A stretch of 64,000 nucleotides of DNA. It comes from a virus. Taxonomy: Duplodnaviria > Heunggongvirae > Uroviricota > Caudoviricetes. How positions within the stretch are numbered: the first letter of the stretch is position 1; each line of letters opens with the position of its first letter. The position numbers and the translations under genes were made by a program. The DNA lies in the IMG/VR virus record IMGVR_UViG_3300033463_000001, positions 211,298-275,297 of that record. One strand, given 5' to 3'. Positions 35,551 through 51,949 of this stretch are shown here, in pieces. A model generated the notes under the pieces. That model ran no database searches. It saw only the letters and a program-made list of their open reading frames with translations, and had not been told where the DNA came from.

Positions 35551-35561
35551 TAAACAAAAAA

Positions 35562-35592
35562 CCGATGCCATTCACGGACATCGGTTTTCTTT
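35562..35592. terminator. bidirectional Rho-independent terminator
   Basis: AAAAAA-CCGATGcc-attcacgga-CATCGG-TTTTCTTTTT between convergent genes. Confidence 0.65.
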
Positions 35593-36090: not shown

Positions 36091-36091
36091 A

Positions 36092-37210: not shown

Positions 37211-37215
37211 AGCTT

Positions 37216-38275: not shown

Positions 38276-38792
38276 TGTCTTCAGTGATTTTAGAGAAGTC
38301 CAACTCAGATATAATGTGTAACAGTCGTTCCAGCTCGAAGTTTCGGTAAGCCGTCATTGCGTAGGTGCGAGGATTGGAGTGGTTGTAACCAAATCGCTCG
38401 ATGTATTCTTTGCAAGCGCGTTTTGTGAGGAAAGCACCGGTGTTCATGCTAATGAAATCCTCTTGGCGAGTTGAGATGAGCCGTGCCTCGTCTACGCCAC
38501 ACATGTCGTTATAGAAATCGATAACACTCTCAATATCTGATTTATCAACATCACACCAAGCAATCCCCTCTTCTTGACCGTCAACGTACTCGTCCACGTG
38601 TTCTACAAACTCGTCACATGTGTATGTTCTATCGTCGCAGACGACCATTTCGTCATCTCCGCAGCCTTCCGGAACGCCGACTGTTTTTGTTTCAAGAACT
38701 CCCCAGTATACAGGTGATGCGTTACCGTCATTCGTCTGAGTGTTGAGTTCGTGCTGTAAATCCTTCAGGAATTCAATATCTTCTTTTTTCAT
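38265..38792 (-). CDS. hypothetical acidic protein (175 aa)
   Basis: ORF, Cys/Asp-rich. Confidence 0.45.
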   Translation of the reverse strand: MKKEDIEFLKDLQHELNTQTNDGNASPVYWGVLETKTVGVPEGCGDDEMVVCDDRTYTCDEFVEHVDEYVDGQEEGIAWCDVDKSDIESVIDFYNDMCGVDEARLISTRQEDFISMNTGAFLTKRACKEYIERFGYNHSNPRTYAMTAYRNFELERLLHIISELDFSKITEDNDA

Positions 38793-38802
38793 AATGTTAG
38801 TT

Positions 38803-39294
38803 TTATTGGATTGGCATCCAGTGAGTGATTAAACCTTGCAATATCTTCGCAGGACACCAAGTCTTTGTCGCATGGTCATACCTGGCTGATGTTCCGTCAC
38901 CTTTGTATGTCTTTACGAAAACTGTTTTTGATAATAATGTTTTATGACTATCATCTATTTCCGGAAGACGGTCATCTACACTAATCCATCTGTCGCGCAG
39001 TATAGCATTTTCAACTGACGCCATATCTACAGCTGTTGAGTAGGCAGCTATTCGCTTATCGCGCAGTGCCACGGAATCTTCCAAACGTCTGTTTGCAACG
39101 GATAGTTTTTCACACATATCTTGGAGCCTTTTGATTTCTGCATCACGACTGTGTGCTCCTGCAATAAAGGCCTTTTCACTAACAGCATGACACATGTTAC
39201 TGCCAGAATGGTCAGTATAATCGTGTTTATCATACTCACCATAATTATCTATTGCGTACTCTAATGCATTTTGTTTAATTTGTTCTTCTGCCAT
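38803..39294 (-). CDS. DUF551-like protein fused to shared N-terminal 'MTDEQIRQNA...AGAHSRD' module
   Basis: C-terminal RWISVDDRLPE...THWMPIQ. N-terminus MAEEQIKQNALEY...FIAGAHSRDAEI matches standalone ORFs 40663 and 41600. Confidence 0.55.
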   Translation of the reverse strand: MAEEQIKQNALEYAIDNYGEYDKHDYTDHSGSNMCHAVSEKAFIAGAHSRDAEIKRLQDMCEKLSVANRRLEDSVALRDKRIAAYSTAVDMASVENAILRDRWISVDDRLPEIDDSHKTLLSKTVFVKTYKGDGTSARYDHATKTWCPAKILQGLITHWMPIQ

Positions 39295-39578
39295 AGTTCT
39301 TTTAGGTAATTAACGTATCGTTGCTGCTCATCAAGCACCTTCTCCTCGCGTTCAATGACTTTCTCAATTGATATTAACGCAACATTGTTTGCAGCGCACT
39401 CATAATGCAGCTCCTTGGGTAGTCGGCAACCGTTATATCCAGCAAAAGCACAGTGTCGGCAGTGCGAGTAATCTGGATTCTGCTCCTCACACAGATATTT
39501 CTTATCATTAATAATAACGACGTCGCCGTGGTTGAGGTATTTTTCCCCTGTTAATTCGTCCGTATCCATATTGTTCAA
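39261..39578 (-). CDS. hypothetical protein (105 aa) with CxxC pairs
   Basis: ORF containing ...CEEQNPDYSHCRHCAFAGYNGC... Confidence 0.4.
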   Translation of the reverse strand: MNNMDTDELTGEKYLNHGDVVIINDKKYLCEEQNPDYSHCRHCAFAGYNGCRLPKELHYECAANNVALISIEKVIEREEKVLDEQQRYVNYLKELWQKNKLNKMH

Positions 39579-39931
39579 TGCTTCTTTTGGTTAGGCCGTT
39601 TTCCGTTATGTGTCTCGCGGTAGTCCATGTCAATGTAGTCAAGGAGCCTTATAAGGAATGGGATTTCGTTTTCTACATCTGTTAACTCGTTCGCTTCAAA
39701 TCCAATGACTGTCCTGTAGTCTTGCGCTTTGAGATAAAGCTTGAGTCCGAATTCGTTACCACTGATTATGTCAAAACAAGCGTTAAACGTTCCGAACGGC
39801 TGGAGGTAGTGTATTATCGTTTCACCAGTCAGTTCAAACTTACCATTCTCGAAATACTCTGCGATATTACGCATAAGGCGCTGCTTAATTGGTAGCAGTT
39901 GGTTTTGGTATTTTTTACTTGGTAAACTCAT
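39575..39931 (-). CDS. hypothetical protein (118 aa)
   Basis: ORF; start overlaps the upstream stop. Confidence 0.45.
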   Translation of the reverse strand: MSLPSKKYQNQLLPIKQRLMRNIAEYFENGKFELTGETIIHYLQPFGTFNACFDIISGNEFGLKLYLKAQDYRTVIGFEANELTDVENEIPFLIRLLDYIDMDYRETHNGKRPNQKKH

Positions 39932-39941
39932 AGTGTTTTAT

Positions 39942-40232
39942 TTAAAAATTCACCCAAATTACTTTATATATCATGCGATACCTATTGCGCCTTGTTAAGA
40001 CGGTGTACCGCCAATGTTTCTTAGACGAATCAAAATACTCATCGCGAATATATCTTGAATCGCCATCAGAGATGACGCTTGTTTCGCCGTTGTTTTTGCG
40101 TATCATTTCTCCGGGGAGTGGAACGCGCTCTGCGTAGGAATACCAACGTTGTTTTCCGTTAAGGAACTTAGCAATCTCTTTACTGTTCATCACGTACTTC
40201 TCCACTGTGACAGGAATAACTTCGTATGCCAT
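39942..40232 (-). CDS. hypothetical protein (96 aa)
   Basis: ORF, basic. Confidence 0.4.
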   Translation of the reverse strand: MAYEVIPVTVEKYVMNSKEIAKFLNGKQRWYSYAERVPLPGEMIRKNNGETSVISDGDSRYIRDEYFDSSKKHWRYTVLTRRNRYRMIYKVIWVNF

Positions 40233-40250
40233 AATTAACTGTTTTTATTT

Positions 40251-40658
40251 TTAATAACCAAGCAAAAGAGCTAAACATTTCCTAATTCCTTCCTCTAGTG
40301 CATACTCATACGTAAGGAAATTACCTTCTGAATAGGCGAAGTTAGCCATATTGATTACACCTTGTATACTGTATTCGTATTCTCTGTTTTCAAATGAGGC
40401 GATTTTACCATTACTCAGGATTACATGCCATTTTACAATGACTTCAATCCCCTTAACTTCTCTTAACCATCGTTGTGCTACAGCAAGCGTTGGTGCTGAT
40501 TTCAGAAGGTCTTCCTCGTTGAGATTGCATGCGTCGTACTCTTCGTTCGATAGCGTTGGTTGGTTATTGAAATAAGCATATTCACAATCCCAGTTGAAAC
40601 CAATTTCTTTCAGTAGGGATGCAGTTGCTAATGATACGTAACTTTCGTGTTTAGTCAT
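40251..40658 (-). CDS. paralog family A protein (HESYVS...SAPTLAVAQRWL), copy 1 of 4
   Basis: MTKHESYVSLATASLLKEIGFNW...SAPTLAVAQRWLREV...YEYALEEGIRKCL shared with 41182, 42396 and 45754. Confidence 0.55.
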   Translation of the reverse strand: MTKHESYVSLATASLLKEIGFNWDCEYAYFNNQPTLSNEEYDACNLNEEDLLKSAPTLAVAQRWLREVKGIEVIVKWHVILSNGKIASFENREYEYSIQGVINMANFAYSEGNFLTYEYALEEGIRKCLALLLGY

Positions 40659-40662
40659 GTTA

Positions 40663-40914
40663 TTAGTTGTTTAAGAATTTACGTGGAAGCATCATCCTGT
40701 CGCTAGCATAATCTTTCAACTCTTCGTAACGTTTGCGCAATGCGTCCAGTTCTTCGTTGCGACTGTTTGCTCCGGCAATAAATGCCCTTACTAACGGTTC
40801 CTCGTGGAATCCATCCAACGGTTCCTCACCATCCAGAAGCCGCTGCAGCTCGTATTTGTCATATCCGACTCCGATATAACTGATGGCATTGTCTCTTATT
40901 TCCTTATCTGTCAT
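40663..40914 (-). CDS. paralog family C small protein (MTD.EIR.NA...AGA.SR), standalone copy
   Basis: MTDKEIRDNAISY...AFIAGANSRNEELDAL; same module as the N-termini of 38803 and 44545. Confidence 0.5.
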   Translation of the reverse strand: MTDKEIRDNAISYIGVGYDKYELQRLLDGEEPLDGFHEEPLVRAFIAGANSRNEELDALRKRYEELKDYASDRMMLPRKFLNN

Positions 40915-41195
40915 TTCTTATCCTCCTTATCTTTCCACTTGAGTTTGTAGGTGTGCGTTGTGTCGCCATTGAGAATATGTGTCGTTTCAATGTAGACGGC
41001 GCGACCTTCGATAACGTCGGTGTCGTTAGGCGTTTCTGTTAACTCGATGATTGCCGGAATGGTCAGGAAGAACAAGAAAATTGAAAAGATACATCTTGGG
41101 TCTTCTTTAGCAAAGCCAACGCAAACGAGTACAACAAATAAAGCACAAATTGTGCAGATTAACGTAATTGCTGATGCCATATTATTTTTGTTCAA
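40911..41195 (-). CDS. small membrane protein (94 aa)
   Basis: Single long hydrophobic helix (AITLICTICALFVVLVCVGF...). Confidence 0.4.
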   Translation of the reverse strand: MNKNNMASAITLICTICALFVVLVCVGFAKEDPRCIFSIFLFFLTIPAIIELTETPNDTDVIEGRAVYIETTHILNGDTTHTYKLKWKDKEDKK

Positions 41196-41598
41196 TTAAC
41201 ATCGTTAAACATTTTTGAATGCCTTCCTCCAAAGCGTCTTCATATGTATTTGCTCTACCCATGTGGTAAAACACTTTAATGAATTCATTCTTAGCATTTG
41301 CAATCTCAGCTTCTTCTTTGGACGGAATGTAATCACATATATATTGAAAGAATCCAATGAAAGGTTCTACAAAAACGTGTAATTTGAATGTTTCTCTTAA
41401 CCACCGTTGAGCAACTGCAAGAGTTGGTGCCGATAGGCCATATTTTTTACTATTATGATTTCTTCCATCTGGGAAAAAAGACATTAAAAACGTTTTTTCA
41501 TCCCATAACTCATAGCAGTAGTTTGTATTCCAATCGAATCCGGCGTCTTTTAAGAGTTTAGCTGTTTCCTCACTAACATATGATTCGTGTGTTGTCAT
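41182..41598 (-). CDS. paralog family A protein, copy 2 of 4
   Basis: MTTHESYVSEETAKLLKDAGFDW...SAPTLAVAQRWLRE...YEDALEEGIQKCL. Confidence 0.55.
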   Translation of the reverse strand: MTTHESYVSEETAKLLKDAGFDWNTNYCYELWDEKTFLMSFFPDGRNHNSKKYGLSAPTLAVAQRWLRETFKLHVFVEPFIGFFQYICDYIPSKEEAEIANAKNEFIKVFYHMGRANTYEDALEEGIQKCLTMLIEQK

Positions 41599-41599
41599 T

Positions 41600-41809
41600 T
41601 TAATATTCCAATTCGGTAATTCTTAATTGAAGTTTTTGAACCAAAGCCCTATACTTTGCGATTTCCTCATCGCGGCTATGAGCACCCTTGATATAGGCGA
41701 CCTCAGCAGCCGTATGTATCGCTAAAGGGATACCATTATTTTGTTCCGTAATAGGAGCAGCTTTGTTAGCGTACTCCTCTGCGTTTTGTCTAATTTGTTC
41801 GTCTGTCAT
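41600..41809 (-). CDS. paralog family C small protein, standalone copy
   Basis: MTDEQIRQNAEEYA...AYIKGAHSRDEEIAKY. Confidence 0.5.
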   Translation of the reverse strand: MTDEQIRQNAEEYANKAAPITEQNNGIPLAIHTAAEVAYIKGAHSRDEEIAKYRALVQKLQLRITELEY

Positions 41810-41811
41810 AG

Positions 41812-42393
41812 TTATTTACCCTTCCAATTTTCCTGTATATACCAATTTGCCGCTTCGAGCGCCTCTTCTTTTGTATTCCATTTTTGATTGCCATCTTTAT
41901 CTACGACGTCCAGACTTCCTATTTTTGCATAGTAATGAACTCCACCAGGCCAAACAAGCACCCTAATATCAGAAGCAGAAGGTTTTTCTTCATCCGGGAA
42001 AGTTAGTGTTTCTTTTTCCACTTCGGCAATTACCTCGGATACTCTCTCATCGAAAAGCATTACTTGCATTCCATGGGTTAGGTAAATTTCTTTATCGCCA
42101 CATGATTTGATTCGAGATTGAAACGCTTCGTTTTCGACGCAAACAAGTGCTGTACGCAAATCTGTGCCTGTAGCAGCCATATATACTTCAACTGCTCGTT
42201 CAAAGTCGTTATTACAATGCCCGATAACACTTTTCAATACTTTCCTTACAAGGTGATGCGTGCCTTCTTTGATTACCGACGCAGGATATTTATACCAGTG
42301 TTCAACGACCTGTGCAACATCTTTTGGTTTAAACAACCAATATTCGTTGTTGCCATTAATTTTTTGTTTTATTTTAACAAACGTGTAAGACAT
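41812..42393 (-). CDS. hypothetical protein (193 aa)
   Basis: ORF 2 nt after the upstream stop. Confidence 0.45.
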   Translation of the reverse strand: MSYTFVKIKQKINGNNEYWLFKPKDVAQVVEHWYKYPASVIKEGTHHLVRKVLKSVIGHCNNDFERAVEVYMAATGTDLRTALVCVENEAFQSRIKSCGDKEIYLTHGMQVMLFDERVSEVIAEVEKETLTFPDEEKPSASDIRVLVWPGGVHYYAKIGSLDVVDKDGNQKWNTKEEALEAANWYIQENWKGK

Positions 42394-42395
42394 AC

Positions 42396-42806
42396 TTATT
42401 TCTCAAGTAAAATGGTTAAACATTTCTTGATACCTGCTTCAAGAGCCAATTCATAAGTATCAAAATTTTCAGGTGTAAGTGCAATGCCACCAACGTCTTC
42501 ATGCAAAAGCCAAAAGTCTTTAGCAATTAAAGGTGTCCATTTTTTACTGCCTGATAATGGTGATGCTATTATTTGAATATTCTTCACTTCTATCAACCAC
42601 CTCTGAGCAACTGCGAGGGTCGGCGCGGAGAAAAATTCATAAGGTGTATTTACCTCGTAGCTTTTTGCGTTAAAATTGTCCTGGAGGCCATCTGTTTTGT
42701 GCACAAGCTCACCATCTCTATACGCTGAGTCTATAAACCACTTAAAACCTGCTTGTTTTAGAAGTTTAGATGTTTCAAGACTTACATATGTTTCGTGTTG
42801 GTTCAT
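42396..42806 (-). CDS. paralog family A protein, copy 3 of 4
   Basis: MNQHETYVSLETSKLLKQAGFKW...SAPTLAVAQRWLIEV...YELALEAGIKKCL. Confidence 0.55.
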   Translation of the reverse strand: MNQHETYVSLETSKLLKQAGFKWFIDSAYRDGELVHKTDGLQDNFNAKSYEVNTPYEFFSAPTLAVAQRWLIEVKNIQIIASPLSGSKKWTPLIAKDFWLLHEDVGGIALTPENFDTYELALEAGIKKCLTILLEK

Positions 42807-42809
42807 AAT

Positions 42810-43535
42810 TTATTCAGGATTATTAGTTGTACCTACCAAGCGTTCATTGCCTTCGTATGGAATACAATATTTATAATCATTTGCGCAGCAACGATATGGA
42901 TAGTCCTTTGGATAGTTGCCGTCATAATAGCGAAATATATCTGGCACCCATTTTCCTTCACTATTATCCCTCACTAACACCTTATCAAACGGCTTAAACT
43001 CATATTTCTCTTTATAGTGTTTTAATTTTCTGAGTTCTACTTTAGAACATCCACATGTCCCATCTGCGAATATCAAGGCTTTATCGTTTTTAATTTCTTT
43101 TATAGTCCATATAATCTCACTACCACTTTTTGTAACTTTATCCCCAACCTTGAAATTATGTGTCCATACATCATATTTACGTTCTGTGCAATCATTAGTA
43201 CATGAATGACATTGCCCGTCACAACCTGCCAAGCCATTCAACTGCTCTGATGGCTCTTCTGGGAGTTCAATGAATAAATCAGTAGGATGCTCATCAATAA
43301 CTGCATTAAAACCATTTCTTCCATCTTTTGTAAAATTATATATAACATCCTGTTTTTCTTCAGGTAATACAATAATACCAACTATCGGATGAAATGGGTG
43401 TTTAAAATCAAAACATAGTATTTTGACGTTATATCCGCTTCTTGTTACAATTCTACCTTCAACCTCTCCTGATTGAATCTTCTTTGCTAGTTCAATAGTG
43501 AATGGCAGTTGTTTCAATTGTTTATTTTCTTCCAT
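42810..43535 (-). CDS. hypothetical Cys-rich protein (241 aa)
   Basis: ORF with CDGQCHSCTNDC and CGCS clusters. Confidence 0.45.
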   Translation of the reverse strand: MEENKQLKQLPFTIELAKKIQSGEVEGRIVTRSGYNVKILCFDFKHPFHPIVGIIVLPEEKQDVIYNFTKDGRNGFNAVIDEHPTDLFIELPEEPSEQLNGLAGCDGQCHSCTNDCTERKYDVWTHNFKVGDKVTKSGSEIIWTIKEIKNDKALIFADGTCGCSKVELRKLKHYKEKYEFKPFDKVLVRDNSEGKWVPDIFRYYDGNYPKDYPYRCCANDYKYCIPYEGNERLVGTTNNPE

Positions 43536-43554
43536 TTTTTTTTCTCGTAGTGTT

Positions 43555-43872
43555 TTAGTTTTTGTTTATATAACTTTCCATTGCTTTGTTGATGCCACCG
43601 AAATTTTCTACGATATTATCACACCAATCAATATTAAGTTCGTCAATATAGTCAGGAGCATCTTCGATACTGTAATACGTATGGATTAGAGGTATCATTT
43701 GTGTAGTGGTAAAACTGTATACACCTCCGACTTTTGTTGCGTGGAAACACCATGCTTCTTTGTTGTTGTATGCGCAAAGAAGTTTTGTTGCCATAACGGG
43801 TTCACCTTTGAGTGTATGTTCTTCGTACAATGGCGCGTTTTTTAATGCTCGTAGAATATCTTCTTTTGTCAT
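43555..43872 (-). CDS. hypothetical protein (105 aa)
   Basis: ORF, no motif. Confidence 0.4.
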   Translation of the reverse strand: MTKEDILRALKNAPLYEEHTLKGEPVMATKLLCAYNNKEAWCFHATKVGGVYSFTTTQMIPLIHTYYSIEDAPDYIDELNIDWCDNIVENFGGINKAMESYINKN

Positions 43873-43910
43873 ATTCCTAATGGTTCTTCAGCAAAGATAA
43901 TATATTGATT

Positions 43911-44261
43911 TTACTTATCAAGGAATTCTTGTATTTGTTTTACTGTCTCATCGTGCGTTTCTTTTGTGTATGGGAACACTCTCATAACTTTACTCGCTGG
44001 TGATGTGTTGCAAGCGTATGTTAGTGTGTACAGGTATTCGTTCAGGTATGCACCTTGTAGCCCTGTAGAGTCAAACACAACGAGTATTCTGTATGGTGCG
44101 CCTTTTCCCTCTGCGATGATGCGCGTAGTTCTAGCGTAAGAGCCTAGTGTGTTTCTATTATTGACATTGATACGGTGGGCTTCTTTGAAACTTGTAATGT
44201 TGAGTGATTTGATAAATGCATCACCAGTTTCAGCTCTGTCCGTTACGATGTAGAGGTTCAT
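43911..44261 (-). CDS. hypothetical protein (116 aa)
   Basis: ORF, no motif. Confidence 0.4.
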   Translation of the reverse strand: MNLYIVTDRAETGDAFIKSLNITSFKEAHRINVNNRNTLGSYARTTRIIAEGKGAPYRILVVFDSTGLQGAYLNEYLYTLTYACNTSPASKVMRVFPYTKETHDETVKQIQEFLDK

Positions 44262-44460
44262 AGTGCTCCTTTCTCTTTAAGTTTGTTTGCGAGTCGATTT
44301 GTTTTGACAATTTTATACCATATTCCATCAAATGTTGTATTTTCTCTCGTTCCTCTTTTGAAAACTGTTTCGGAGGCTTTCCACAGACCATTGGTGGGTA
44401 GTCAACAATTATAAGACCAGTCTTTTCGTACGCCCAGACGTTATTTCCTAAACTAAACAT
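44230..44460 (-). CDS. small hypothetical protein (76 aa; start moved)
   Basis: ORF-track start 44487 would fall inside the -7 box of promoter 44485-44535. The next ATG (44460, MFSLGNN) leaves a ~20 nt leader. Confidence 0.4.
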   Translation of the reverse strand: MFSLGNNVWAYEKTGLIIVDYPPMVCGKPPKQFSKEEREKIQHLMEYGIKLSKQIDSQTNLKRKEHYEPLHRNGQS

Positions 44461-44484
44461 AATACATAGTTCGTTAAAATCCGA

Positions 44485-44535
44485 CACAAAGGTAAGTAAA
44501 ATTTTTCAATTTTGCAAATCCTTTAGATGAATTTT
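44485..44535 (-). promoter_or_regulatory. Bacteroidota-type promoter within a 50 nt conserved repeat, copy 2 of 3
   Basis: Minus-strand read: AAAATTCATCTAAAGGATTTG-caaaattgaaaaattttac-TTACCTTTG (TTTG ... TAccTTTG). Confidence 0.55.
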
Positions 44536-44544
44536 ACAAACTTA

Positions 44545-44988
44545 TCACTTATTCATTGTAAATCTTGGTATTGGCATCCAGTGTGTGAACCCATCAAAAT
44601 CAACTTCACCATGTATGGTGTGCCAGCAATGGTTTTCGTTTAAATCACCAATGTTATACTCACCTTCATCTGGTTTATGAAAATCGCCTAAAATAACAGT
44701 GTCACTACATTTACCGTCACTACATGTACACTCTAGCATCGGTGTTTGTTCTTGTACAGAAATCCACCTACCTAACGCGAGTTGGTTATATCTTGACTCT
44801 AGCTCACTAATGTATGTGCGTAACGCTTCGATTTCTTTATCTCTGCTTCTGTACCCATCAACATATCCTCTGGCTGCTTGGTAATTCAGAGCGTGTTGGA
44901 AATGGTTTCCAATTTGAGTAACAGGAGAAACTTTATCCGCATACTCTTCAGAAGCGGTTACGACTTTTTCAAATTCTTCTTCCGTCAT
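44545..44988 (-). CDS. DUF551-like protein fused to family C N-terminal module
   Basis: MTEEEFEKVVTASEEYA...GYRSRDKEIEAL N-terminus. C-terminus RWISVQEQTPM...FTHWMPIPRF. Confidence 0.55.
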   Translation of the reverse strand: MTEEEFEKVVTASEEYADKVSPVTQIGNHFQHALNYQAARGYVDGYRSRDKEIEALRTYISELESRYNQLALGRWISVQEQTPMLECTCSDGKCSDTVILGDFHKPDEGEYNIGDLNENHCWHTIHGEVDFDGFTHWMPIPRFTMNK

Positions 44989-45010
44989 AATATGGCAATT
45001 GTTATTCAGA

Positions 45011-45253
45011 TTAATCCCACGAAATCATCCACTCGTTGTAGTCGCATTCTTCAACCTTGAAGCCGTCTTCTTTCAAACGGTTCTTAGTTTGCCATGTGCA
45101 TATCCAATCCGGTTTGAAACCGTCGAATCCCTCTATACCAACTATGATATTGCTTTCTCCATTCTGCATAGCCTCTTTGATGTGCTCCTGGATGATATCA
45201 TAGTTGTTTTCGTTGGTAATTGCGTACTTACGCAACATTTCGTCTTTTGTCAT
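45011..45253 (-). CDS. hypothetical protein (80 aa)
   Basis: ORF; ATGA overlap with the small ORF upstream. Confidence 0.4.
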   Translation of the reverse strand: MTKDEMLRKYAITNENNYDIIQEHIKEAMQNGESNIIVGIEGFDGFKPDWICTWQTKNRLKEDGFKVEECDYNEWMISWD

Positions 45254-45402
45254 GCTTTAGCTTGTTTTTCGTTCCACTGTTTATCACTTCCGTATTCGTG
45301 AAGCCGATTGGCTAATTCACATATTTGTGAACCGCTCAATCTTTGAGATACGACATAGTTGTATAACTCCTCAGTTATTTTCGAACTAAAACCCTTACTC
45401 AT
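45250..45402 (-). CDS. small ORF (50 aa) not in the ORF track
   Basis: ATG 4 nt after the upstream stop. MSKGFSSKITEELYNYVVSQRLSGSQICELANRLHEYGSDKQWNEKQAKA; its TGA overlaps the ATG of 45253 (ATGA coupling). It fills an otherwise empty 140 nt gap. Confidence 0.35.
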   Translation of the reverse strand: MSKGFSSKITEELYNYVVSQRLSGSQICELANRLHEYGSDKQWNEKQAKA

Positions 45403-45757
45403 AATCTTTCAATTTTGAAAAATCCATGTCACACGTACCGATAATCGTAATCAACTGTTCTATTAAAGGCTTATCGCTATAGAATAAATCCCAACTTCTG
45501 CTCTTACGAACTCTGCATGTTTTAATGATTTCAATCAGTCTTCCTGCAGACCATGCTGGTGTGTATAAACTAGAAGTTCTAAAATAATCCAGTATTACCT
45601 GTCTGTGTTCATCATCTGGCATGAGCTGTAATGTGTCGTTATTACGCCCCCAACCAACTCCTGAATAATAACAATCTACACTATATAATGGTACGCCAAT
45701 ATCCACTAGACGTTGTGATTGTTCCATAGTGGTAAATCCGTTTTGAATTGATTTCAT
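45395..45757 (-). CDS. paralog family D protein (TPEQSKRLLDLGVP...PCWSAGRLIEIYEIC), copy 1 of 3
   Basis: Start moved to MKSIQNGFTTMEQSQRLVDIGVP by paralog alignment with 48278 and 49166. This gives an ATGA-type 4 nt overlap with the upstream gene. Confidence 0.5.
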   Translation of the reverse strand: MKSIQNGFTTMEQSQRLVDIGVPLYSVDCYYSGVGWGRNNDTLQLMPDDEHRQVILDYFRTSSLYTPAWSAGRLIEIIKTCRVRKSRSWDLFYSDKPLIEQLITIIGTCDMDFSKLKDYE

Positions 45758-46191
45758 TGTTTCGTCATTACGTATATTAAACATTGTTGTAAGCCAACTT
45801 CGAGCGCCTCTTCGTACGAAGGAAAAGTCCACTTATCTGGTTCGCCTAATGGTACATCATCAGCTTCGATATCAGTATCAGTAGCAGCGGATTGCCACAT
45901 CATGCGCCATGTATCCTCACCTTTATCTACCAGCTCAAATCCTGGACATGTGTACACTGCGATGTGTTTAGACTCAAGAAGCCATTTTTGTGCAACCGCC
46001 AAGGTCGGTGCAGAATAGTATTCTACGTCCGGATTAACAGACGCAGTTGCGTTTGCGTTCCAGTCTGATTCATATCCACGGAGGATAAACTTGCCATCTT
46101 TATTGTAATGCGCTGGGCATTCCCAGTCAAAACCAACGGCTTTTAATTGTTTCGCGGTATCGAAACTAACGTATGATTCATGTTTACTCAT
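45754..46191 (-). CDS. paralog family A protein, copy 4 of 4
   Basis: Start moved to MSKHESYVSFDTAKQLKAVGFDW by paralog alignment. ...SAPTLAVAQKWLLE...YEEALEVGLQQCL. Confidence 0.55.
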   Translation of the reverse strand: MSKHESYVSFDTAKQLKAVGFDWECPAHYNKDGKFILRGYESDWNANATASVNPDVEYYSAPTLAVAQKWLLESKHIAVYTCPGFELVDKGEDTWRMMWQSAATDTDIEADDVPLGEPDKWTFPSYEEALEVGLQQCLIYVMTKQ

Positions 46192-46269
46192 ATCACTCTG
46201 TATTTTATATTGCTGTACGCATGAAATCGACAGCATTCTCTAACAATTCTGTTGGTGTCATCCTTTACA

Positions 46270-46569
46270 TCATTTTGGTAATTCTGGGATAGGCATCCAA
46301 TGCGTACATTTATATCCTGAATACCCAAGAAATCTTTTCTCTTTGTTGAGGTCAGTAACGTGCATCGCAGTATATCCAACTAACCCAATAAAGCGCACAA
46401 ATACAAAGTCTCCCTTTTCAGGAAGTTTATCTTCTACACTTATCCACGGGTTCTGCGGATGAGCATCTGCCCATTTGGCACCTTCCGTAAAGTACTCCAT
46501 AGGGTACTTATGGTACATTTCTCCATAGTACGCCTTTGCAACTTGTTTTATTTCTTCTTCGCGTGTCAT
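46270..46569 (-). CDS. DUF551-like protein (99 aa)
   Basis: MTREEEIKQ...NPWISVEDKLPEKGD...CTHWMPIPELPK. Confidence 0.55.
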   Translation of the reverse strand: MTREEEIKQVAKAYYGEMYHKYPMEYFTEGAKWADAHPQNPWISVEDKLPEKGDFVFVRFIGLVGYTAMHVTDLNKEKRFLGYSGYKCTHWMPIPELPK

Positions 46570-46585
46570 AATTCAGTTATCCTTT

Positions 46586-46909
46586 CTATAATTGGGGTAT
46601 CGGCATCCAGTGGGTTACAAATTCTCCATCTTCAAAATCAAGTGTTTCTGGTTCTTCAGAGAAAAACCAATCTTTATTGTTATAATCATATTGCCCCTTA
46701 AACCAATATCCAATATTTGTAAGGGCAATGACTGCTTTCGAAATATTGTCTTTATCCTTTATTGGTAGTTCTTTGCTTGCATCACGCCACGGATTAACCG
46801 GGTGCTCGTCTGCCCATTTGCACGCATCTTGCCATGTAGTACGTTCAGAACAGTCTAAGTCATCCCTCCATTGTTCGTATGCTTTATTTATTTCTTCTTC
46901 GCGCGTCAT
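46586..46909 (-). CDS. DUF551-like protein (107 aa)
   Basis: MTREEEINKAYEQW...NPWRDASKELPIKD...VTHWMPIPQL; adjacent tandem paralog of 46270. Confidence 0.55.
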   Translation of the reverse strand: MTREEEINKAYEQWRDDLDCSERTTWQDACKWADEHPVNPWRDASKELPIKDKDNISKAVIALTNIGYWFKGQYDYNNKDWFFSEEPETLDFEDGEFVTHWMPIPQL

Positions 46910-46923
46910 AATCAGCCATTTCT

Positions 46924-47196
46924 TTAGTCAATCGGTTTTCCGTGCTTCAACTTCTCGGATGCCTCGTTAATCCACTTGATAATCTCGTCGCTCTTCATAA
47001 TGCGTATAGCATACTCATGGATTCGGGCAGACGGTTTCATAAGGTAGTCGTCATAATAATCTAGCACCTCCTCTGTGAAGCCATGTGCCCATTCTGTCGT
47101 CTTGCTAATGATTATCAACAGGATGGCGATTGGGAACAGAATTGCCATTAGGATATAATGGCACAGCATAATTGGTACCACCAATAACTTTTTCAT
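46924..47196 (-). CDS. small membrane protein (90 aa)
   Basis: MKKLLVVPIMLCHYILMAILFPIAILLIIIS hydrophobic N-terminus; first ATG is at 47196 (the ORF track used GTG 47202). Confidence 0.45.
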   Translation of the reverse strand: MKKLLVVPIMLCHYILMAILFPIAILLIIISKTTEWAHGFTEEVLDYYDDYLMKPSARIHEYAIRIMKSDEIIKWINEASEKLKHGKPID

Positions 47197-47198
47197 TT

Positions 47199-47375
47199 TC
47201 ACTCCTCCAATTTTAGTTTTTTAAGATTAAGTAACATAATTTTATCTTCTCCGCATGTTGCAATATCCAATCTCGCATCAGTTACTTCACAATCGCAATA
47301 ATCATGATTGAAATATAATGGGATGTTCTCTACATTATATTTTTGCGCAAATTCATATAATTCTTTTGCTGTCAT
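47199..47375 (-). CDS. small ORF (58 aa) not in the ORF track
   Basis: MTAKELYEFAQKYNVENIPLYFNHDYCDCEVTDARLDIATCGEDKIMLLNLKKLKLEE. ATG 2 nt after the upstream stop; its stop abuts the next start. It fills a 175 nt gap. Confidence 0.35.
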   Translation of the reverse strand: MTAKELYEFAQKYNVENIPLYFNHDYCDCEVTDARLDIATCGEDKIMLLNLKKLKLEE

Positions 47376-47377
47376 AA

Positions 47378-47797
47378 TTACTCCCTCGATATTTCTATTG
47401 CCAGTCCTTTTTCAATTAAACCTCTGTAATCAAAATGGTGTTCATTAAGCCAATCTATTGCTTCGTATGGTATGTACCATGTTTCGTTGTTAAAGTTATG
47501 GTAAACAGTTACGTATCCATATTCCTCTGTATGTCTTCCATTATCCTCTTCTCTAACGTCTATACAGAACTCTTGTTTAAGTTCTTCTTTTTCTTCATCA
47601 GTCATACTTGACAATGGCCGAAGATATGGTTTAATTTCCATACCTGCACACCGATTATACAATACACTCAGGTTTAACTCAGTATCATAAGGCTCACGTT
47701 CATCATAGAATACGTCATGTTCAATATGCACTGTTGGTTTATATGGTAATCTTGCACATAAATCTTTGTATAATATGGTCAAATCTTCCTTTGTCAT
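47378..47797 (-). CDS. hypothetical protein (139 aa)
   Basis: ORF, acidic. Confidence 0.45.
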   Translation of the reverse strand: MTKEDLTILYKDLCARLPYKPTVHIEHDVFYDEREPYDTELNLSVLYNRCAGMEIKPYLRPLSSMTDEEKEELKQEFCIDVREEDNGRHTEEYGYVTVYHNFNNETWYIPYEAIDWLNEHHFDYRGLIEKGLAIEISRE

Positions 47798-48069
47798 AAT
47801 TTTTGACTTACAATTACAAATTTAATATGGTCTGATGGGAATCCAATTGTTTTTTCGTTTTCGATATATGGCTTACGTTCACAGTATCCATACAATCCGC
47901 TTTTTTCAACGGTTACTACCATCTTTAATGTCTTTGGTTTTTCAATAAATTCTTTAACAATTCCAGTCATTACAAAAGAATTACCGGTTGTCCATCCATC
48001 AGACATTACAATTCTATCACCAATTTTTGGTGTCTTTCCGTTTAAATCATATATATCATTAATTGTCAT
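47794..48069 (-). CDS. hypothetical protein (91 aa)
   Basis: ORF; start overlaps the upstream stop. Confidence 0.4.
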   Translation of the reverse strand: MTINDIYDLNGKTPKIGDRIVMSDGWTTGNSFVMTGIVKEFIEKPKTLKMVVTVEKSGLYGYCERKPYIENEKTIGFPSDHIKFVIVSQKL

Positions 48070-48080
48070 AATTGAGCTAT

Positions 48081-48248
48081 TTAATTTCCTAATGCAATTT
48101 CTATTGCTCTTTCAGCAGCACTAAGACTAACTACATATGAACATTCTGTATATTCTCGACAATCTGGTCCATATGATTTTTCTATGTGATGCATTTTGAA
48201 CATATTAAGATAATCCAATGCTTTCTTTTTTCTGTCTTCCTTTTTCAT
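48081..48248 (-). CDS. small ORF (55 aa) not in the ORF track
   Basis: MKKEDRKKKALDYLNMFKMHHIEKSYGPDCREYTECSYVVSLSAAERAIEIALGN; occupies the 48070-48277 gap on the coding strand of the block. Confidence 0.3.
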   Translation of the reverse strand: MKKEDRKKKALDYLNMFKMHHIEKSYGPDCREYTECSYVVSLSAAERAIEIALGN

Positions 48249-48277
48249 ATTTTATTTGTTTTCATTGTTTGTCATAT

Positions 48278-48613
48278 TCACTCATCCAATTTTAAAAAGT
48301 CAAACCTATATTTTTTCTCCACATCTTCAAAATCTTCGAGTAGCATATCAATTTTTGAATAATTTTCAATAATTTCGTTTTGCCACACTTGTCCGGTACA
48401 GATTTCATACACCTCAATCAGTTGGCCAACCGACCAACAAGGAGTAAATCTGGTGTATGTGTCAAAGAATGAACTTTCTAACTTACCGTATACTCGAACT
48501 TCTAAATTCTTGTAATGGTCATAATAGCAATCCGCACTATCAGCCGGAACGCCTAAATCCAACAGCCGTTTTGACTGCTCTGGTGTTGTGAAATTACTTC
48601 GTAGCTTCTTCAT
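48278..48613 (-). CDS. paralog family D protein, copy 2 of 3
   Basis: MKKLRSNFTTPEQSKRLLDLGVPADSADCYY...PCWSVGQLIEVYEIC. Confidence 0.5.
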   Translation of the reverse strand: MKKLRSNFTTPEQSKRLLDLGVPADSADCYYDHYKNLEVRVYGKLESSFFDTYTRFTPCWSVGQLIEVYEICTGQVWQNEIIENYSKIDMLLEDFEDVEKKYRFDFLKLDE

Positions 48614-49169
48614 GTTTCAAATTTCTTCTAAATTCAATTTCATCACGATATTGTGGTGGGATAATAGCTGTTACCAACGCTTCACCAAATTCAATTTGGT
48701 TGTAAGGTTTAATATCTTTCCCATCTTTATGGCCACATCCGAGACTGAATCCCATGCTGAAATAGTATTCCAGCATGCTTGCAAGTCTACGTTGAGCTGC
48801 GAAGACGAAATCGCCAGGAATACGATGGTTATGCCTAGCTATACTGGGGAAAACTTCCTCAACATCTTTGTCACGTGCAATTTGAAAATCGGGATGATTC
48901 TCGTATTTTTTTGCGTGGTCGAAATGCATTTCATATTCCCTTTGTATACGTGCAGCTATTTCACGGTACGCATCCTCTTTTCCCATGAAATATGAGATTT
49001 GGTCTGCTTCATTGTGCCTATCGTAATGCTCCAGAACCAGTTTCCATTGTGCATTTTTGCAGTTATCAGCGATGTTATCGAGAGCTGTCATCAATTCACT
49101 ATAAAACTTCGCATAAAGCTCAAGTGCGTACGGCAATGCTATATCAAATTCTTCTTTTGTCATGGTCAT
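48594..49169 (-). CDS. hypothetical protein (191 aa)
   Basis: ORF coupled on both sides; His-rich segments. Confidence 0.45.
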   Translation of the reverse strand: MTMTKEEFDIALPYALELYAKFYSELMTALDNIADNCKNAQWKLVLEHYDRHNEADQISYFMGKEDAYREIAARIQREYEMHFDHAKKYENHPDFQIARDKDVEEVFPSIARHNHRIPGDFVFAAQRRLASMLEYYFSMGFSLGCGHKDGKDIKPYNQIEFGEALVTAIIPPQYRDEIEFRRNLKHEEATK

Positions 49170-49525
49170 TCCTCTAGTTTTGAAAGGTCGAGTCTATGAT
49201 TCAGGAATGCAGATTCCATTGTCGTGTAGATGTCTGCGAAAACGCCATATACGTCAAGTCGAGTGAAAATCTTTCCAGAACAGATTTCGTAGATTTCAAT
49301 GAGTCGCCCGGCAGACCAACAAGGTCGCATGTTAGGCGCTATCTCATATGTAAATGCTGTTGTGAGTTGTTCCGAATAGGTTTGGTCGCCACAGTGGAAT
49401 ATTCTTGACAGTTCCTTGCGCCTATTCTCGTGGAAATAGCAATCAGCAGTATCTTCCGGGAGGCCTAACTCTAAGAGCCGTTTCGCTTGCTCCGGTGTTG
49501 TGTAGTTATTTTGTAATTTTCTCAT
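49166..49525 (-). CDS. paralog family D protein, copy 3 of 3
   Basis: MRKLQNNYTTPEQAKRLLELGLPEDTADCYF...PCWSAGRLIEIYEIC. Confidence 0.5.
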   Translation of the reverse strand: MRKLQNNYTTPEQAKRLLELGLPEDTADCYFHENRRKELSRIFHCGDQTYSEQLTTAFTYEIAPNMRPCWSAGRLIEIYEICSGKIFTRLDVYGVFADIYTTMESAFLNHRLDLSKLEE

Positions 49526-50178: not shown

Positions 50179-50742
50179 TTACCTCCATTCGTGATGACAG
50201 TCGAGACATTCGAACCGGTCTGCAAACATGCCAGGATAACAGTGTATATTTGTCGAACCGCACTTTGGGCAGCATTCCAAGTTGTTAACTTCTATTTTTC
50301 CATAATCTCGCAGCTGTTTCAATCTTGAACAAAACTCAGTTTGCGTTAGTACGGTTTTTGTTTTATCATTTTTTCCGATTGAGTGTGTAAGCGTACACCC
50401 TTTTGTTGCTTCTAGTGCATTCCTGAACCCAGCATTCTCGTATAATGCATTGTATGCTCTATCTAGTAATACTTGATATTCTTTAGATTGACGAGCAATC
50501 GCTTTACCCTGCCAATACAAAGTTTGTGTTTTCCACCACTTTTTATTTTTACCCTTAAATTTGGCGGCTTTTCCAACAAGCGTACATACATATTTCTGCA
50601 TATCTACCGATTCAAACTTGAGAGACTGTAAAAAGCCTTCCATTGAATTGCACTGGACTCCATCTATTACAAACGGGTGCGGTGCAAAATTCGATAGAGC
50701 AGAACTTGGATAACTATTTCCACTTCCTATATCCATTACCAA
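50179..50742 (-). CDS. NADAR (YbiA/DUF1768) domain protein with C-terminal zinc ribbon
   Basis: ...SALSNFAPHPFVIDGVQCNSMEGFLQSLKF... aligns with E. coli YbiA FSNFAAWPIKVDGKTWPTSEHYFQAQKF. C-terminal CCPKCGS...CLDCHH. Confidence 0.7.
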   Translation of the reverse strand: MVMDIGSGNSYPSSALSNFAPHPFVIDGVQCNSMEGFLQSLKFESVDMQKYVCTLVGKAAKFKGKNKKWWKTQTLYWQGKAIARQSKEYQVLLDRAYNALYENAGFRNALEATKGCTLTHSIGKNDKTKTVLTQTEFCSRLKQLRDYGKIEVNNLECCPKCGSTNIHCYPGMFADRFECLDCHHEWR

Positions 50743-51881: not shown

Positions 51882-51898
51882 GCGCTTTCAAATTTCGG

Positions 51899-51949
51899 TG
51901 CAAAGATATGTAAAAATTTTGAATTTTGCAAATCCTTTGGACGATTTTT
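51899..51949 (-). promoter_or_regulatory. Bacteroidota-type promoter within a 50 nt conserved repeat, copy 3 of 3
   Basis: Minus-strand read: AAAATCGTCCAAAGGATTTG-caaaattcaaaatttttaca-TATCTTTG, 13 nt before ATG 51881. Divergent from the + strand fibre genes. Confidence 0.6.

What the first reader, a model, noticed from the sequence alone, without database searches (positions are those of the whole stretch)
38803..49525. Array of multi-copy small-gene families in the minus-strand early block
At least four families recur among ~35 small genes:
- A: 4 copies at 40251, 41182, 42396 and 45754 (HESYVS..TAKLLK..GF.W ... SAPTLAVAQRWL ... YE.ALE.GI.KCL).
- B, DUF551-like: 4 copies at 38803, 44545, 46270 and 46586 (PWISV.D.LPE ... 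THWMPIP).
- C: a ~70 aa MTDEQIRQNA..Y...A.I.GAHSRDEEI module, standalone at 40663 and 41600.
- D: 3 copies at 45395, 48278 and 49166 (TPEQSKRLLDLGVP..DCYY ... PCWSAGRLIEIYEIC).

The pair C-then-A occurs twice in tandem (41809-41182 and 40914-40251), indicating duplication of a two-gene unit. Such diversified paralog arrays are typical of host-takeover and anti-defence loci and are good places to look for new inhibitors.
Basis: seen in the sequence. Interest (0 to 1): 0.6.

Follow-up and report, generated by a model that had tools for sequence, protein, structure and literature searches.

The report
Expanded small-gene families in jumbo phage
A 327-kb gut or rumen phage of Bacteroidales carries a recombination-prone block in which 13 of 30 small genes belong to four widespread protein families of unknown function; they are reasonable but unproven candidates for proteins that bind host proteins.

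Summary
Formal statistics confirm all four families at the stated coordinates: A x4, DUF551 (B) x4, C module x2 standalone, D x3. That is 13 of 30 genes.

Corrections:
- The C module is also the N-terminus of two of the DUF551 proteins.
- Two gene starts move, to 46191 and 45757.
- The copies are old. Each has closer relatives in other phages than in its own genome, so a recent duplication of a C-A unit is not supported.

The window is part of a ~327-kb jumbo phage. A second array elsewhere in that genome holds 8 more D and 2 more A genes behind the same host-type promoter element.

Families A and D are very large (D has 2,090 clusters at 50% identity), have no Pfam entry, and occur in Bacteroidales phages. 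They encode small, acidic, soluble, stand-alone proteins. Both have three near-invariant blocks separated by two hypervariable ones. D has no structural relative.

Most shared genes are under purifying selection. A closely related strain differs by whole-gene gains or losses and carries a chimeric A gene.

The function is unproven. My best guess (~0.4) is that these are host-protein binders acting in counter-defence or host takeover. An AdfN homologue lies in the same block and fits that reading. Overall this is an ordinary kind of locus with well-documented but uncharacterised content.

The parts
51901..51932 (-). Promoter-like element P1 (TTTG, 20 nt, TATCTTTG) just upstream of the ATG at 51881, at the head of the minus-strand block
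   Evidence: It matches the Bacteroidota -33 TTTG / -7 TAnnTTTG consensus (from my own knowledge). The 20-nt core occurs 3 times in the window against 0.05 expected by chance, always on the minus strand and upstream of minus-strand genes. It lies inside the 53-aa ORF 51878-52039, which is therefore doubtful as a gene.
50179..50742 (-). Homologue of T4 gp30.3/AdfN (NADAR-type anti-DarTG1 factor) with a C-terminal zinc-ribbon-like tail; context gene in the same transcription unit
   Evidence: Pfam Phage_30_3 PF08010, 200 bits against a cut-off of 36. Function of the T4 protein: PMC11825919.
49166..49525 (-). Family D copy (119 aa)
   Evidence: BLASTP against 48278 gives 3e-26; family HMM 2e-42.
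48278..48613 (-). Family D copy (111 aa); this copy was modelled
47199..47375 (-). 58-aa gene with a paralogue in the second array (L087:3987-4172); a minor fifth family
   Evidence: BLASTP 37% identity, E 2e-5.
46586..46909 (-). Short DUF551-like protein (107 aa)
   Evidence: BLASTP against 46270 gives 2e-12. Pfam DUF551 scores 16.1 bits, below the cut-off of 22. Hits to phrog_7704 and phrog_924.
46270..46569 (-). Short DUF551 protein (99 aa); its first ~25 residues resemble the C module
   Evidence: Pfam DUF551 40.2 bits; C-module HMM E 1.8e-5 on residues 1-25.
45754..46191 (-). Family A copy (145 aa; start corrected from 46236 to 46191)
45395..45757 (-). Family D copy (120 aa; start corrected from 45832 to 45757), immediately after the A copy with a 4-nt overlap
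   Evidence: P0122 is identical to it.
44545..44988 (-). Fusion protein: C module, coiled-coil-like linker, DUF551 (147 aa)
   Evidence: Pfam DUF551 22.5 bits. N-terminus against 41600 gives 3e-10. Domain HMMs.
44487..44518 (-). Promoter-like element P2, an internal copy of P1 (the 60-nt repeat 44476-44535 is 80% identical to 51890-51949)
   Evidence: The same element is kept in strain L088.
42810..43535 (-). 241-aa cysteine-rich protein with a shorter paralogue in the second array (L087:8924-9388); a minor sixth family
   Evidence: BLASTP: C-terminal part 51% identity, E 2e-15; N-terminal part 34%, E 3e-6.
42396..42806 (-). Family A copy (136 aa); this copy was modelled
41600..41809 (-). Stand-alone C module (69 aa), directly upstream of an A copy
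41182..41598 (-). Family A copy (138 aa)
   Evidence: Identical to P0004, which lies on the 327-kb contigs.
40663..40914 (-). Stand-alone C module (83 aa), directly upstream of an A copy
   Evidence: dN/dS 0.04 against strain L088.
40251..40658 (-). Family A copy (135 aa)
   Evidence: dN/dS 0.03 against strain L088.
38803..39294 (-). Fusion protein: C module, coiled-coil-like linker, DUF551 (163 aa)
   Evidence: Pfam DUF551 27.2 bits. N-terminus against 41600 gives 2e-8.
35556..35590 (-). Intrinsic-terminator-like hairpin (14-bp stem followed by a T run) right after the last minus-strand gene (35593-36090); marks the end of the block

Best explanation
**What is shown**

The region is the central part of a plastic accessory block (about 51.9 to 35.6 kb, minus strand) of a ~327-kb jumbo phage that infects Bacteroidales. 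The block carries two near-identical promoter-like elements, at its head and in its middle, that match the host-type promoter consensus. It ends at a strong terminator.

Thirteen of its 30 central genes belong to three evolutionary units:
- Family A (phrog_12005).
- Family D, which has no Pfam or PHROG entry and may share its N-terminal ~75-residue domain with A.
- A two-module family built from the C module and DUF551, present here both fused and split.

These families are common in Bacteroidales phages. In the smaller phages sampled, family A is a single copy per ~20-kb locus, lying in the region after the replication and DNA-methyltransferase genes. In this genome they have accumulated to at least 6 A and at least 11 D copies, in two arrays headed by the same promoter element.

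The copies are old and diverged. Between near-identical strains, genes are gained, lost and recombined within the paralogous coding sequences.

**What is inferred**

The products are small, acidic, soluble, stand-alone proteins. In A and D, three near-invariant blocks, mostly helical, are separated by two hypervariable stretches. I infer that these proteins act by binding, not catalysis. They would be made from host-RNA-polymerase promoters early in infection and would bind host proteins in fixed ratios, as counter-defence or host-takeover factors. Each paralogue would cover a different target or target variant.
For: - **Families are real:**
- **Genome identity:** the window is 100% identical to a 327,292-bp JGI contig. 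An independent ENA assembly gives 327,291 bp.
- **Second array:** 8 D and 2 A copies just after the B-family DNA polymerase gene, on a contig that carries P0029; that protein is also on the 327-kb contigs.
- **Shared promoter element:** 3 copies in the window against 0.05 expected, plus one copy heading the second array. Terminator.
- **Family sizes and hosts:** A has at least 2,499 homologues. D has 2,090 clusters at 50% identity, and the best 150 are all stand-alone proteins of 108-157 aa. A occurs in Bacteroides gallinarum, Barnesiella, Prevotellaceae and Muribaculaceae assemblies, often near D.
- **Usual copy number:** one A copy in each of 80 viral loci. A DUF551-like gene lies upstream on the same strand in 44 of them. 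The region follows the replication-initiator and DNA-methyltransferase genes.
- **Real genes:** dN/dS is 0.02-0.17 for most genes shared with strain L088, including one A copy (0.03) and one C copy (0.04).
- **Plasticity:** L088 lacks five genes (47794-46192). It has one chimeric A gene, P0005, in place of eight genes (44299-41249).
- **Protein properties:** pI 4.4-6.4 and no membrane segments.
- **Block structure:** the commonest residue has a frequency of 0.8-0.9 in the conserved blocks and 0.22 in the variable ones. Variable stretches range from 12 to 60 residues.
- **No catalytic or nucleic-acid-binding family match**.
- **Context:** an AdfN homologue lies in the same block (PMC11825919). 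A full NAD-salvage cluster follows another copy of the same promoter element.
Against: - Nothing links any of the four families to a defence system or to any host target. There is no sequence or fold match to a characterised inhibitor.
- The conserved blocks contain many invariant polar residues (for example H4, E5, Y7 in A and Q5, N7, T9, T10, E12 in D). These could form an active site or bind a conserved phage partner.
- In two jumbo phages the A genes lie just downstream of the DNA polymerase gene. In small phages they follow the replication genes. Both also fit a role in DNA metabolism.
- Acidic small proteins are common in phages generally, so the charge argument is weak.
- 'Early' timing rests only on the resemblance of the promoter element to the host consensus.
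- Many of the 80 viral loci come from one sample and are not independent.
Confidence: 0.4

Rival explanations
1. Families A and D are accessory factors of phage DNA replication or DNA metabolism. They would bind the replisome or nucleic acids, and the paralogues would serve different steps or templates.
For: - The second array starts right after the B-family DNA polymerase gene.
- In a 365-kb phage the single A gene also lies about 2.4 kb downstream of the polymerase gene on the same strand.
- In small phages A follows the replication-initiator and DNA-methyltransferase genes.
Against: - All copies are acidic (pI 4.5-5.4).
- The helix that would correspond to the RNA-binding KKxAK motif (from my own knowledge) reads YEEALEAGI in family A.
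- Copies are gained and lost between near-identical strains, which is unusual for replication factors.
- Six to eleven copies diverged to 26-45% identity are hard to explain for a core process.
Confidence: 0.15
2. The proteins built from the C module and DUF551 are developmental or stress regulators of the Ea22/YfdS type. They would form oligomers through the N-terminal and coiled-coil part and use DUF551 as a portable partner-binding domain. Stand-alone C proteins would modulate them by forming mixed oligomers. This applies to families B and C only and is compatible with the main explanation.
For: - DUF551 is described as a portable C-terminal domain in Ea22 variant V2 of Shiga-toxin phages, behind an N-terminal segment and a coiled coil, and in YfdS of prophage CPS-53 (PMC10834534, PMC4776307).
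- Here, 51 of the 120 best C-module homologues carry a DUF551-like C-terminus and 68 do not.
- The linkers of 38803 and 44545 look like coiled coils and give weak hits to coiled-coil Pfam families.
Against: - No match to any Ea22-type Pfam family at E <= 1, so the resemblance is in architecture only.
- The function of Ea22 and of DUF551 is itself unknown.
- Mixed oligomers between stand-alone C proteins and the fusions are pure inference.
- A 327-kb phage is not known to be temperate.
Confidence: 0.15
3. The arrays act in competition between phages or mobile elements, for example as superinfection exclusion or as immunity-like proteins against toxins of rival elements. They would not act against host defence systems.
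For: - Arrays of diverged, small, acidic paralogues resemble the immunity-gene arrays of polymorphic toxin systems (from my own knowledge).
- Strain-level gain and loss of genes fits any arms race.
Against: - No cognate toxin genes are seen next to the arrays in the window or in L087.
- No Pfam immunity family is matched.
Confidence: 0.1
4. The copies are functionless passengers that spread by recombination in a permissive part of a very large genome.
For: - High gene turnover between strains, and a chimeric copy.
- One A copy (45754) has dN/dS of about 1.0, but this rests on few substitutions.
Against: - Most shared array genes show dN/dS of 0.02-0.17.
- The conserved blocks are kept near-invariant across hundreds of homologues at about 40% overall identity.
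- All reading frames are intact, and no fragments are found.
Confidence: 0.05

Closest known systems
Hyperplastic regions of T4-type phages (PMC2839356, PMC4122927)
   Same: Clusters of small, mostly unknown, early-transcribed genes lie between conserved core genes. Closely related phages differ by insertion, deletion and replacement of whole genes. Repeated promoter-containing elements are present.
   Different: Here a large share of the genes (13 of 30) belong to a few paralogous families. Recombination breakpoints fall inside the paralogous coding sequences (the chimeric P0005), not at promoter plus stem-loop cassettes. Only two promoter repeats occur in about 16 kb. The host is a Bacteroidales bacterium and the genome is 327 kb.
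Ea22 variant V2 of Shiga-toxin phages, and YfdS of prophage CPS-53 (DUF551 proteins)
   Same: DUF551 is a C-terminal portable domain placed behind an N-terminal segment and a coiled coil. The genes lie in an early accessory region. The function is unknown.
   Different: The N-terminal C module does not match any Ea22-type Pfam family. There are four copies per block instead of one, and the C module also occurs as a separate gene.
phrog_12005 (PHROGs family of unknown function)
   Same: All four A copies match it over its full length (E 1e-9 to 8e-13).
   Different: Family A was a single copy in each of the 80 smaller viral loci sampled. This genome has at least six copies.
Multigene families of large DNA viruses (the poxvirus 'genomic accordion', giant-virus repeat-protein families; from my own knowledge)
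   Same: Expansion of host-interaction gene families in very large viral genomes, and copy-number differences between strains.
   Different: The copies here are ancient (26-45% identity) and are not each other's closest relatives. That points to long-term retention or repeated acquisition, not recent amplification. The folds are unrelated to ankyrin, BTB or F-box domains.
Double-stranded-RNA-binding domain fold
   Different: There is no sequence similarity, the canonical basic RNA-binding motif is absent, the protein is acidic, and an extra N-terminal subdomain is present.

Membership tests
DUF551 (Pfam PF04448) | Score at or above the Pfam gathering threshold (22 bits) | tested here: met
   46270 scores 40.2 bits, 38803 scores 27.2 and 44545 scores 22.5. 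46586 scores 16.1, below the threshold. It is joined to the family by BLASTP against 46270 (2e-12) and by hits to phrog_7704 and phrog_924.
phrog_12005 | Significant full-length match to the PHROG profile | tested here: met
   All four A copies: E 1e-9 to 8e-13, covering profile positions 2-131 of 137.
Ea22-like proteins of lambdoid phages | Match to an Ea22-type N-terminal and coiled-coil Pfam family | tested here: not met
   No such Pfam hit at E <= 1 for 38803, 44545, 40663 or 41600. Only the overall architecture (N-terminal module, coiled coil, DUF551) is similar (PMC10834534).
Known anti-defence proteins (anti-CRISPR, anti-restriction and similar) | Homology to a characterised inhibitor | tested here: not met
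Known anti-defence proteins (anti-CRISPR, anti-restriction and similar) | Demonstrated inhibition of a defence system | not testable with these tools
   This needs expression and plating assays in a Bacteroidales host.
T4-type hyperplastic region | A cluster of small variable genes that differs by whole-gene gains and losses between close relatives | tested here: met
   Strain L088 is 95-98% identical in the flanks but lacks 5 genes, and has 1 chimeric gene in place of 8.
T4-type hyperplastic region | Promoter plus stem-loop cassettes at the boundaries of the exchanged genes | tested here: not met
   Only two promoter-like repeats occur in the block. The mapped breakpoints lie inside coding sequence, for example within the A genes at about 42629/42408 and 41249.
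Double-stranded-RNA-binding domain | Helix, three strands, helix fold together with basic RNA-binding motifs | tested here: inconclusive
Recent tandem duplication (paralogues created in place) | Copies in the same genome are each other's closest relatives | tested here: not met
   Paralogues rank 14th to 120th of about 123 homologues for every A and D copy.
A common superfamily for A and D (proposed here) | Significant profile-profile similarity and the same fold in the N-terminal ~75 residues | tested here: inconclusive
   hhalign P is 0.0099 for full-length profiles, 0.0034 for the N-terminal domain and 0.0014 with the loops removed. Both conserved blocks align in the same order. The order of helices and strands in the two AF2 models is identical. 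The two families are often adjacent. No pairwise superposition of the two models could be run.

The most novel reading that the evidence does not exclude
Families A and D may form one previously undescribed superfamily of two-faced adaptor proteins. The near-invariant, mostly helical blocks would dock onto one common partner, either a host machine or a phage enzyme. The two hypervariable stretches (12-60 residues, close to random in sequence) would recognise different targets. The 17 or more copies in this jumbo phage would then be a hard-wired recognition repertoire. That would parallel the F-box and BTB adaptor families of large eukaryotic viruses, and would sit in the same genome as three diversity-generating retroelements.
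Probability: 0.12. Interest if true: 0.7.

Novelty: new member of a known kind. Interest (0 to 1): 0.38.

Why it matters
**What is ordinary.** Plastic accessory regions full of small unknown genes are a familiar feature of large phages. The existence of the array is therefore not surprising.

**What is useful.**
- Two very large protein families of Bacteroidales phages have no Pfam entry. Family D has 2,090 clusters at 50% identity and no structural relative.
- This genome concentrates at least 17 diverged copies behind one promoter type.
- The copies lie next to genes with known or plausible counter-defence roles: an AdfN homologue and a full NAD-salvage cluster.

Together this gives a compact, ready-made panel for binding-partner and anti-defence screens in gut Bacteroidales, where few phage counter-defence factors are known.

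**A structural lead.** The pattern of invariant blocks alternating with hypervariable ones, shared by A and D, is a concrete hypothesis that structural work can test.

Tried and rejected
- **DNA similarity to known phages.** Megablast of the whole region against 50,697 GenBank phage records found no match.
- **Pfam scans.** Nothing was found for families A and D or for six neighbouring genes, apart from a weak ASCH hit and the Phage_30_3 hit.
- **PHROGs scans.** Nothing was found for D or for the stand-alone C modules.
- **Sequence search of the PDB with family profiles.** No hit.
- **Sigma-70 promoter scan.** 50 sites were found against 53 expected, so it was uninformative, as expected for a Bacteroidota host. 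The loose pattern TTTG-N17-23-TAnnTTTG alone was not above chance (5 found against 2.3 expected). Only the extended 20-nt element was.
- **C-then-A as a conserved cassette.** Rejected, because it was not seen in other loci.
- **A or D fused to other domains.** None was found among 240 homologues or among the best 150 D representatives.
- **More family members among the other 17 genes of the block.** None was found at E < 0.01, apart from a partial C match in 46270 and a borderline one in 48081.
- **Literature search for paralogue expansions in jumbo phages.** Nothing relevant came back.
- **dsRNA binding for family A.** Considered, then set aside because the proteins are acidic and lack the motif.

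Full report

I called ORFs across the window and ran an all-versus-all BLASTP of 80 proteins.

- **Family A** (40251, 41182, 42396, 45754): E 7e-15 to 4e-24, 32-42% identity over the full length.
- **Family D** (45395, 48278, 49166): E 2e-12 to 3e-26.
- **Family B:** Pfam DUF551 (PF04448, gathering score 22 bits) is passed by 46270 (40.2 bits), 38803 (27.2) and 44545 (22.5). Gene 46586 falls short at 16.1 bits but matches 46270 at 2e-12.
- **Family C:** the four members are linked at 8e-4 to 3e-10.

A tblastn search with all family members finds no further copies or fragments in the window.

Corrections:
- There are 30 genes between 38803 and 49525, and 13 of them are family members.
- The C module is not only stand-alone. 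It also forms the N-terminal ~65 residues of the two longer DUF551 proteins (38803 and 44545). Their architecture is C, then a coiled-coil-like linker, then DUF551.
- Two gene starts are later than the longest ORF suggests: 46191 for the A copy and 45757 for the D copy.

**2. Where the window comes from**

Two window proteins are identical to database proteins found on contigs of about 327.3 kb. The window is 100% identical over 20.4 kb to JGI contig Ga0265301_10000011 (327,292 bp). An independent ENA assembly of the same genome is 327,291 bp long. This is therefore a jumbo phage genome.

Family A occurs in assemblies of Bacteroides gallinarum and Barnesiella, and in Prevotellaceae and Muribaculaceae MAGs. 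The repeated promoter-like element described below matches the Bacteroidota consensus (-33 TTTG, -7 TAnnTTTG; from my own knowledge). The host is therefore very probably a member of the Bacteroidales.

**3. Anatomy of the block**

The minus-strand genes from about 51.9 kb down to 35.6 kb are tightly packed. Most gaps are shorter than 40 nt.

A 60-nt repeat (80% identical) occurs at 51890-51949 and at 44476-44535. Its core reads TTTG, then 20 nt, then TA(T/C)CTTTG. The 20-nt core element occurs three times in the window against 0.05 expected. All three copies are on the minus strand and upstream of minus-strand genes (51901, 44487, 26569).

A 14-bp-stem terminator follows the last gene, at 35590-35556. 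The block therefore looks like two co-regulated transcription units under host-type promoters. This gives some support to the label 'early', but only by inference.

The block also contains a clear homologue of T4 gp30.3 (Pfam Phage_30_3, 200 bits). In T4 this protein is AdfN, a NADAR enzyme that counters the DarTG1 defence system (PMC11825919).

**4. What the families are**

*Family A.* It equals phrog_12005, of unknown function. It has at least 2,499 homologues and no Pfam domain.

*Family D.* It has no Pfam or PHROG match. An exhaustive profile search finds 2,090 clusters at 50% identity with E <= 1e-3. All of the best 150 are stand-alone proteins of 108-157 aa.

*The C module.* It has 198 detectable homologues. 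Of the best 120, 51 carry a DUF551-like C-terminus and 68 do not. 'C plus DUF551' is therefore a recurrent two-module protein, and the stand-alone C protein is a common form in its own right, not a local truncation.

*DUF551 in the literature.* It is described as a portable C-terminal domain in Ea22 variant V2 of Shiga-toxin phages, behind an N-terminal segment and a coiled coil, and in YfdS of prophage CPS-53. Its function is unknown (PMC10834534, PMC4776307).

*Fusions.* No fusion of A or D to any other domain was seen.

*Protein properties.* All thirteen proteins are acidic (pI 4.4-6.4) and lack membrane segments.

**5. Structure**

The first ~75 residues of A and D have the same order of helices and strands. 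Their conserved blocks align with each other:
- YVSLETAKLLKeAGF (A) with FTTPEQSKRLLELGV (D).
- sAPTLxVAQRWLRE (A) with lPCWSVGRLIEI (D).

The hhalign P value is 0.0099 for full-length profiles, 0.0034 for the N-terminal domain and 0.0014 with the loops removed. This is suggestive of a shared domain, not proof.

Both families show the same striking five-part pattern: conserved N block, hypervariable stretch, conserved core, hypervariable stretch, conserved C block. The commonest residue has a frequency of 0.8-0.9 in the conserved blocks and about 0.22 in the variable ones. The variable stretches range from 12 to 60 residues.

**6. Distribution and history**

In 80 viral contigs of 3-89 kb (mostly 30-70 kb), family A is a single copy within about 10 kb on each side. 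A DUF551-like gene lies on the same strand upstream in 44 of them. In one example the region follows a replication-initiator gene and DNA-methyltransferase genes. This placement recalls the accessory regions of lambdoid phages. Many of these contigs come from one sample and are not independent.

A and D co-occur in 7 of 15 loci from Bacteroidales and mis-binned assemblies.

The present genome is exceptional. A contig carrying P0029, a protein also found on the 327-kb contigs, shows a second array with 8 D and 2 A copies within 10 kb. It starts right after the B-family DNA polymerase gene and is headed by the same 20-nt promoter element. Two more small families are shared between the two arrays: 47199 with h3987, and 42810 with h8924. 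The genome therefore has at least 6 A and at least 11 D genes.

The copies are not recent. For every A and D copy, the paralogues in the same genome rank 14th to 120th among about 123 homologues, and some copies have relatives at 62-71% identity elsewhere. The two C-then-A pairs are compatible with an ancient duplication, since 40251 and 41182 are each other's nearest in-genome paralogue at 42% identity. But the two stand-alone C copies show no special affinity, and the adjacency is not seen in other loci. I therefore do not accept the two-gene duplication as shown.

**7. Plasticity and selection**

A related strain (L088, from JGI sample 3300041717) is 95-98% identical in the flanks. It lacks window 47794-46192, which holds five genes including both short DUF551 genes. 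In place of window 44299-41249 (eight genes) it has a single chimeric A gene, P0005. The N-terminal half of P0005 is novel, its middle is identical to 42396, and its tail matches 41182.

Several family members have been replaced by diverged alleles (50-81% amino-acid identity), while their neighbours are 97-100% identical.

Genes shared by both strains mostly show dN/dS of 0.02-0.17, including an A copy (0.03) and a C copy (0.04). They are therefore real, constrained genes. One A copy (45754) has dN/dS of about 1.0, based on few changes.

**8. How it most likely works**

*Shown:* the families, their architecture, their expansion, their plasticity, the purifying selection and the shared promoter element.

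*Inferred:* these are non-enzymatic binding proteins made early from host-type promoters. They would act on host proteins in counter-defence or host takeover. The multiple diverged copies would broaden the range of targets or target variants.

I give this about 0.4. The main rivals are:
- a role in replication or DNA metabolism (0.15; position next to replication genes, dsRBD-like half of A);
- Ea22/YfdS-type regulators for the C and DUF551 proteins (0.15; compatible with the main idea);
- competition between phages or mobile elements (0.1);
- functionless passengers (0.05; contradicted by the selection data).

The invariant polar residues in the conserved blocks leave open an enzymatic function, or an adaptor function in which the invariant face binds one common partner and the variable face binds many targets.

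**9. Comparison with what is known, and novelty**

The closest known analogue of the locus is the hyperplastic region of T4-type phages (PMC2839356, PMC4122927). It shares the small variable early genes and the whole-gene differences between close strains. It differs because here paralogous families dominate and the breakpoints lie inside paralogous coding sequence, not at promoter plus stem-loop cassettes.

The families themselves are DUF551 (a known domain of unknown function), phrog_12005 (catalogued, function unknown) and D (not in Pfam or PHROGs).

I rate this a new member of a known kind, of moderate interest. The locus is a well-defined panel of candidates, not a new mechanism.

**10. 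Dead ends**

These are listed in the separate field 'tried and rejected'. In particular, no DNA similarity to GenBank phages was found, the afdb50 fold library was unavailable, and no structural superposition of A and D could be run.

Noticed in passing
window 9900-22000 (+ strand): There are three diversity-generating retroelement cassettes. The variable/template repeat pairs are 11818-11943 / 12513-12638 (94% identical), 16709-16843 / 17060-17194 (90%) and 20001-20119 / 20650-20768 (86%). Almost all mismatches fall at template adenines (6 of 7, 11 of 14, 16 of 17). The variable repeats lie at the 3' ends of three paralogous target genes (10640-11944, 15234-16841, 18557-20128). Two reverse transcriptases are present (12642-13877 and 20707-21996, 48% identical).
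   Followed up: partly
window 50179-50742 (-): A homologue of T4 gp30.3/AdfN, the NADAR enzyme that counters the DarTG1 defence system (Pfam Phage_30_3, 200 bits). It has an extra cysteine-rich, zinc-ribbon-like C-terminal tail.
   Followed up: partly
window 22622-30542 (-): A cluster of NAD-salvage and NAD-synthesis genes: NAD synthase (29670), an isochorismatase/nicotinamidase-like gene (29058), a phosphoribosyltransferase (27413), a Thg1-like gene (25704), NAPRTase (24289), NUDIX (23757), a cytidylyltransferase/NMNAT-like gene (23005) and DUF488-N3a (22622). A copy of the same promoter-like element lies at 26569-26600. The cluster may rebuild NAD to counter NAD-depleting host defences.
   Followed up: partly
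L087:3604-13323 (another region of the same genome, downstream of the B-family DNA polymerase gene): A second and larger array holds 8 family-D and 2 family-A genes, with D-then-A adjacent twice. It also holds an internal pair of 70-aa paralogues (7765 and 8701, 50% identical) and a small acetyltransferase. It is headed by the same promoter element, at L087:3559-3578.
   Followed up: yes
L088 (JGI 3300041717, 34-kb contig) compared with window 31117-48070: This is a near-identical strain with whole-gene differences in the array and a chimeric family-A gene, P0005. The part of the D copy 45395 that aligns by BLASTN is ~98% identical, but its product is only 63% identical overall and its N-terminal part does not align. 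This suggests allele replacement by recombination.
   Followed up: yes
window 51878-52039 (-): This 53-aa ORF (pI 10.4) overlaps the promoter-like element P1, and I see no gene matching it in either external gene-call table. It is probably not a gene.
   Followed up: no
window 31244-32752 (-) and 33434-34798 (+): A Band_7/flotillin-like protein (502 aa) and a protein with CHB_HEX_C_1 and Fn3_assoc carbohydrate-binding-type repeats (454 aa) flank the end of the array. These annotations come from precomputed Pfam hits.
   Followed up: no
window 52093-61375 (+): These are large tail-fibre-like proteins with internal paralogy: 53247-58241 (1,664 aa) against 58251-60221 (656 aa) and 52093-53238. 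The C-terminus of 58251 matches many tail-fibre PHROGs.
   Followed up: no
L091/L092 (contig CAMEJC010000001.1, 83.6 kb, labelled as a Tenericutes MAG) and L098 (labelled Bathyarchaeota): These are phage-like contigs that carry family A (three copies plus one D on the 83.6-kb contig). They are binned into MAGs of implausible taxa and are probably mis-binned phage contigs.
   Followed up: no
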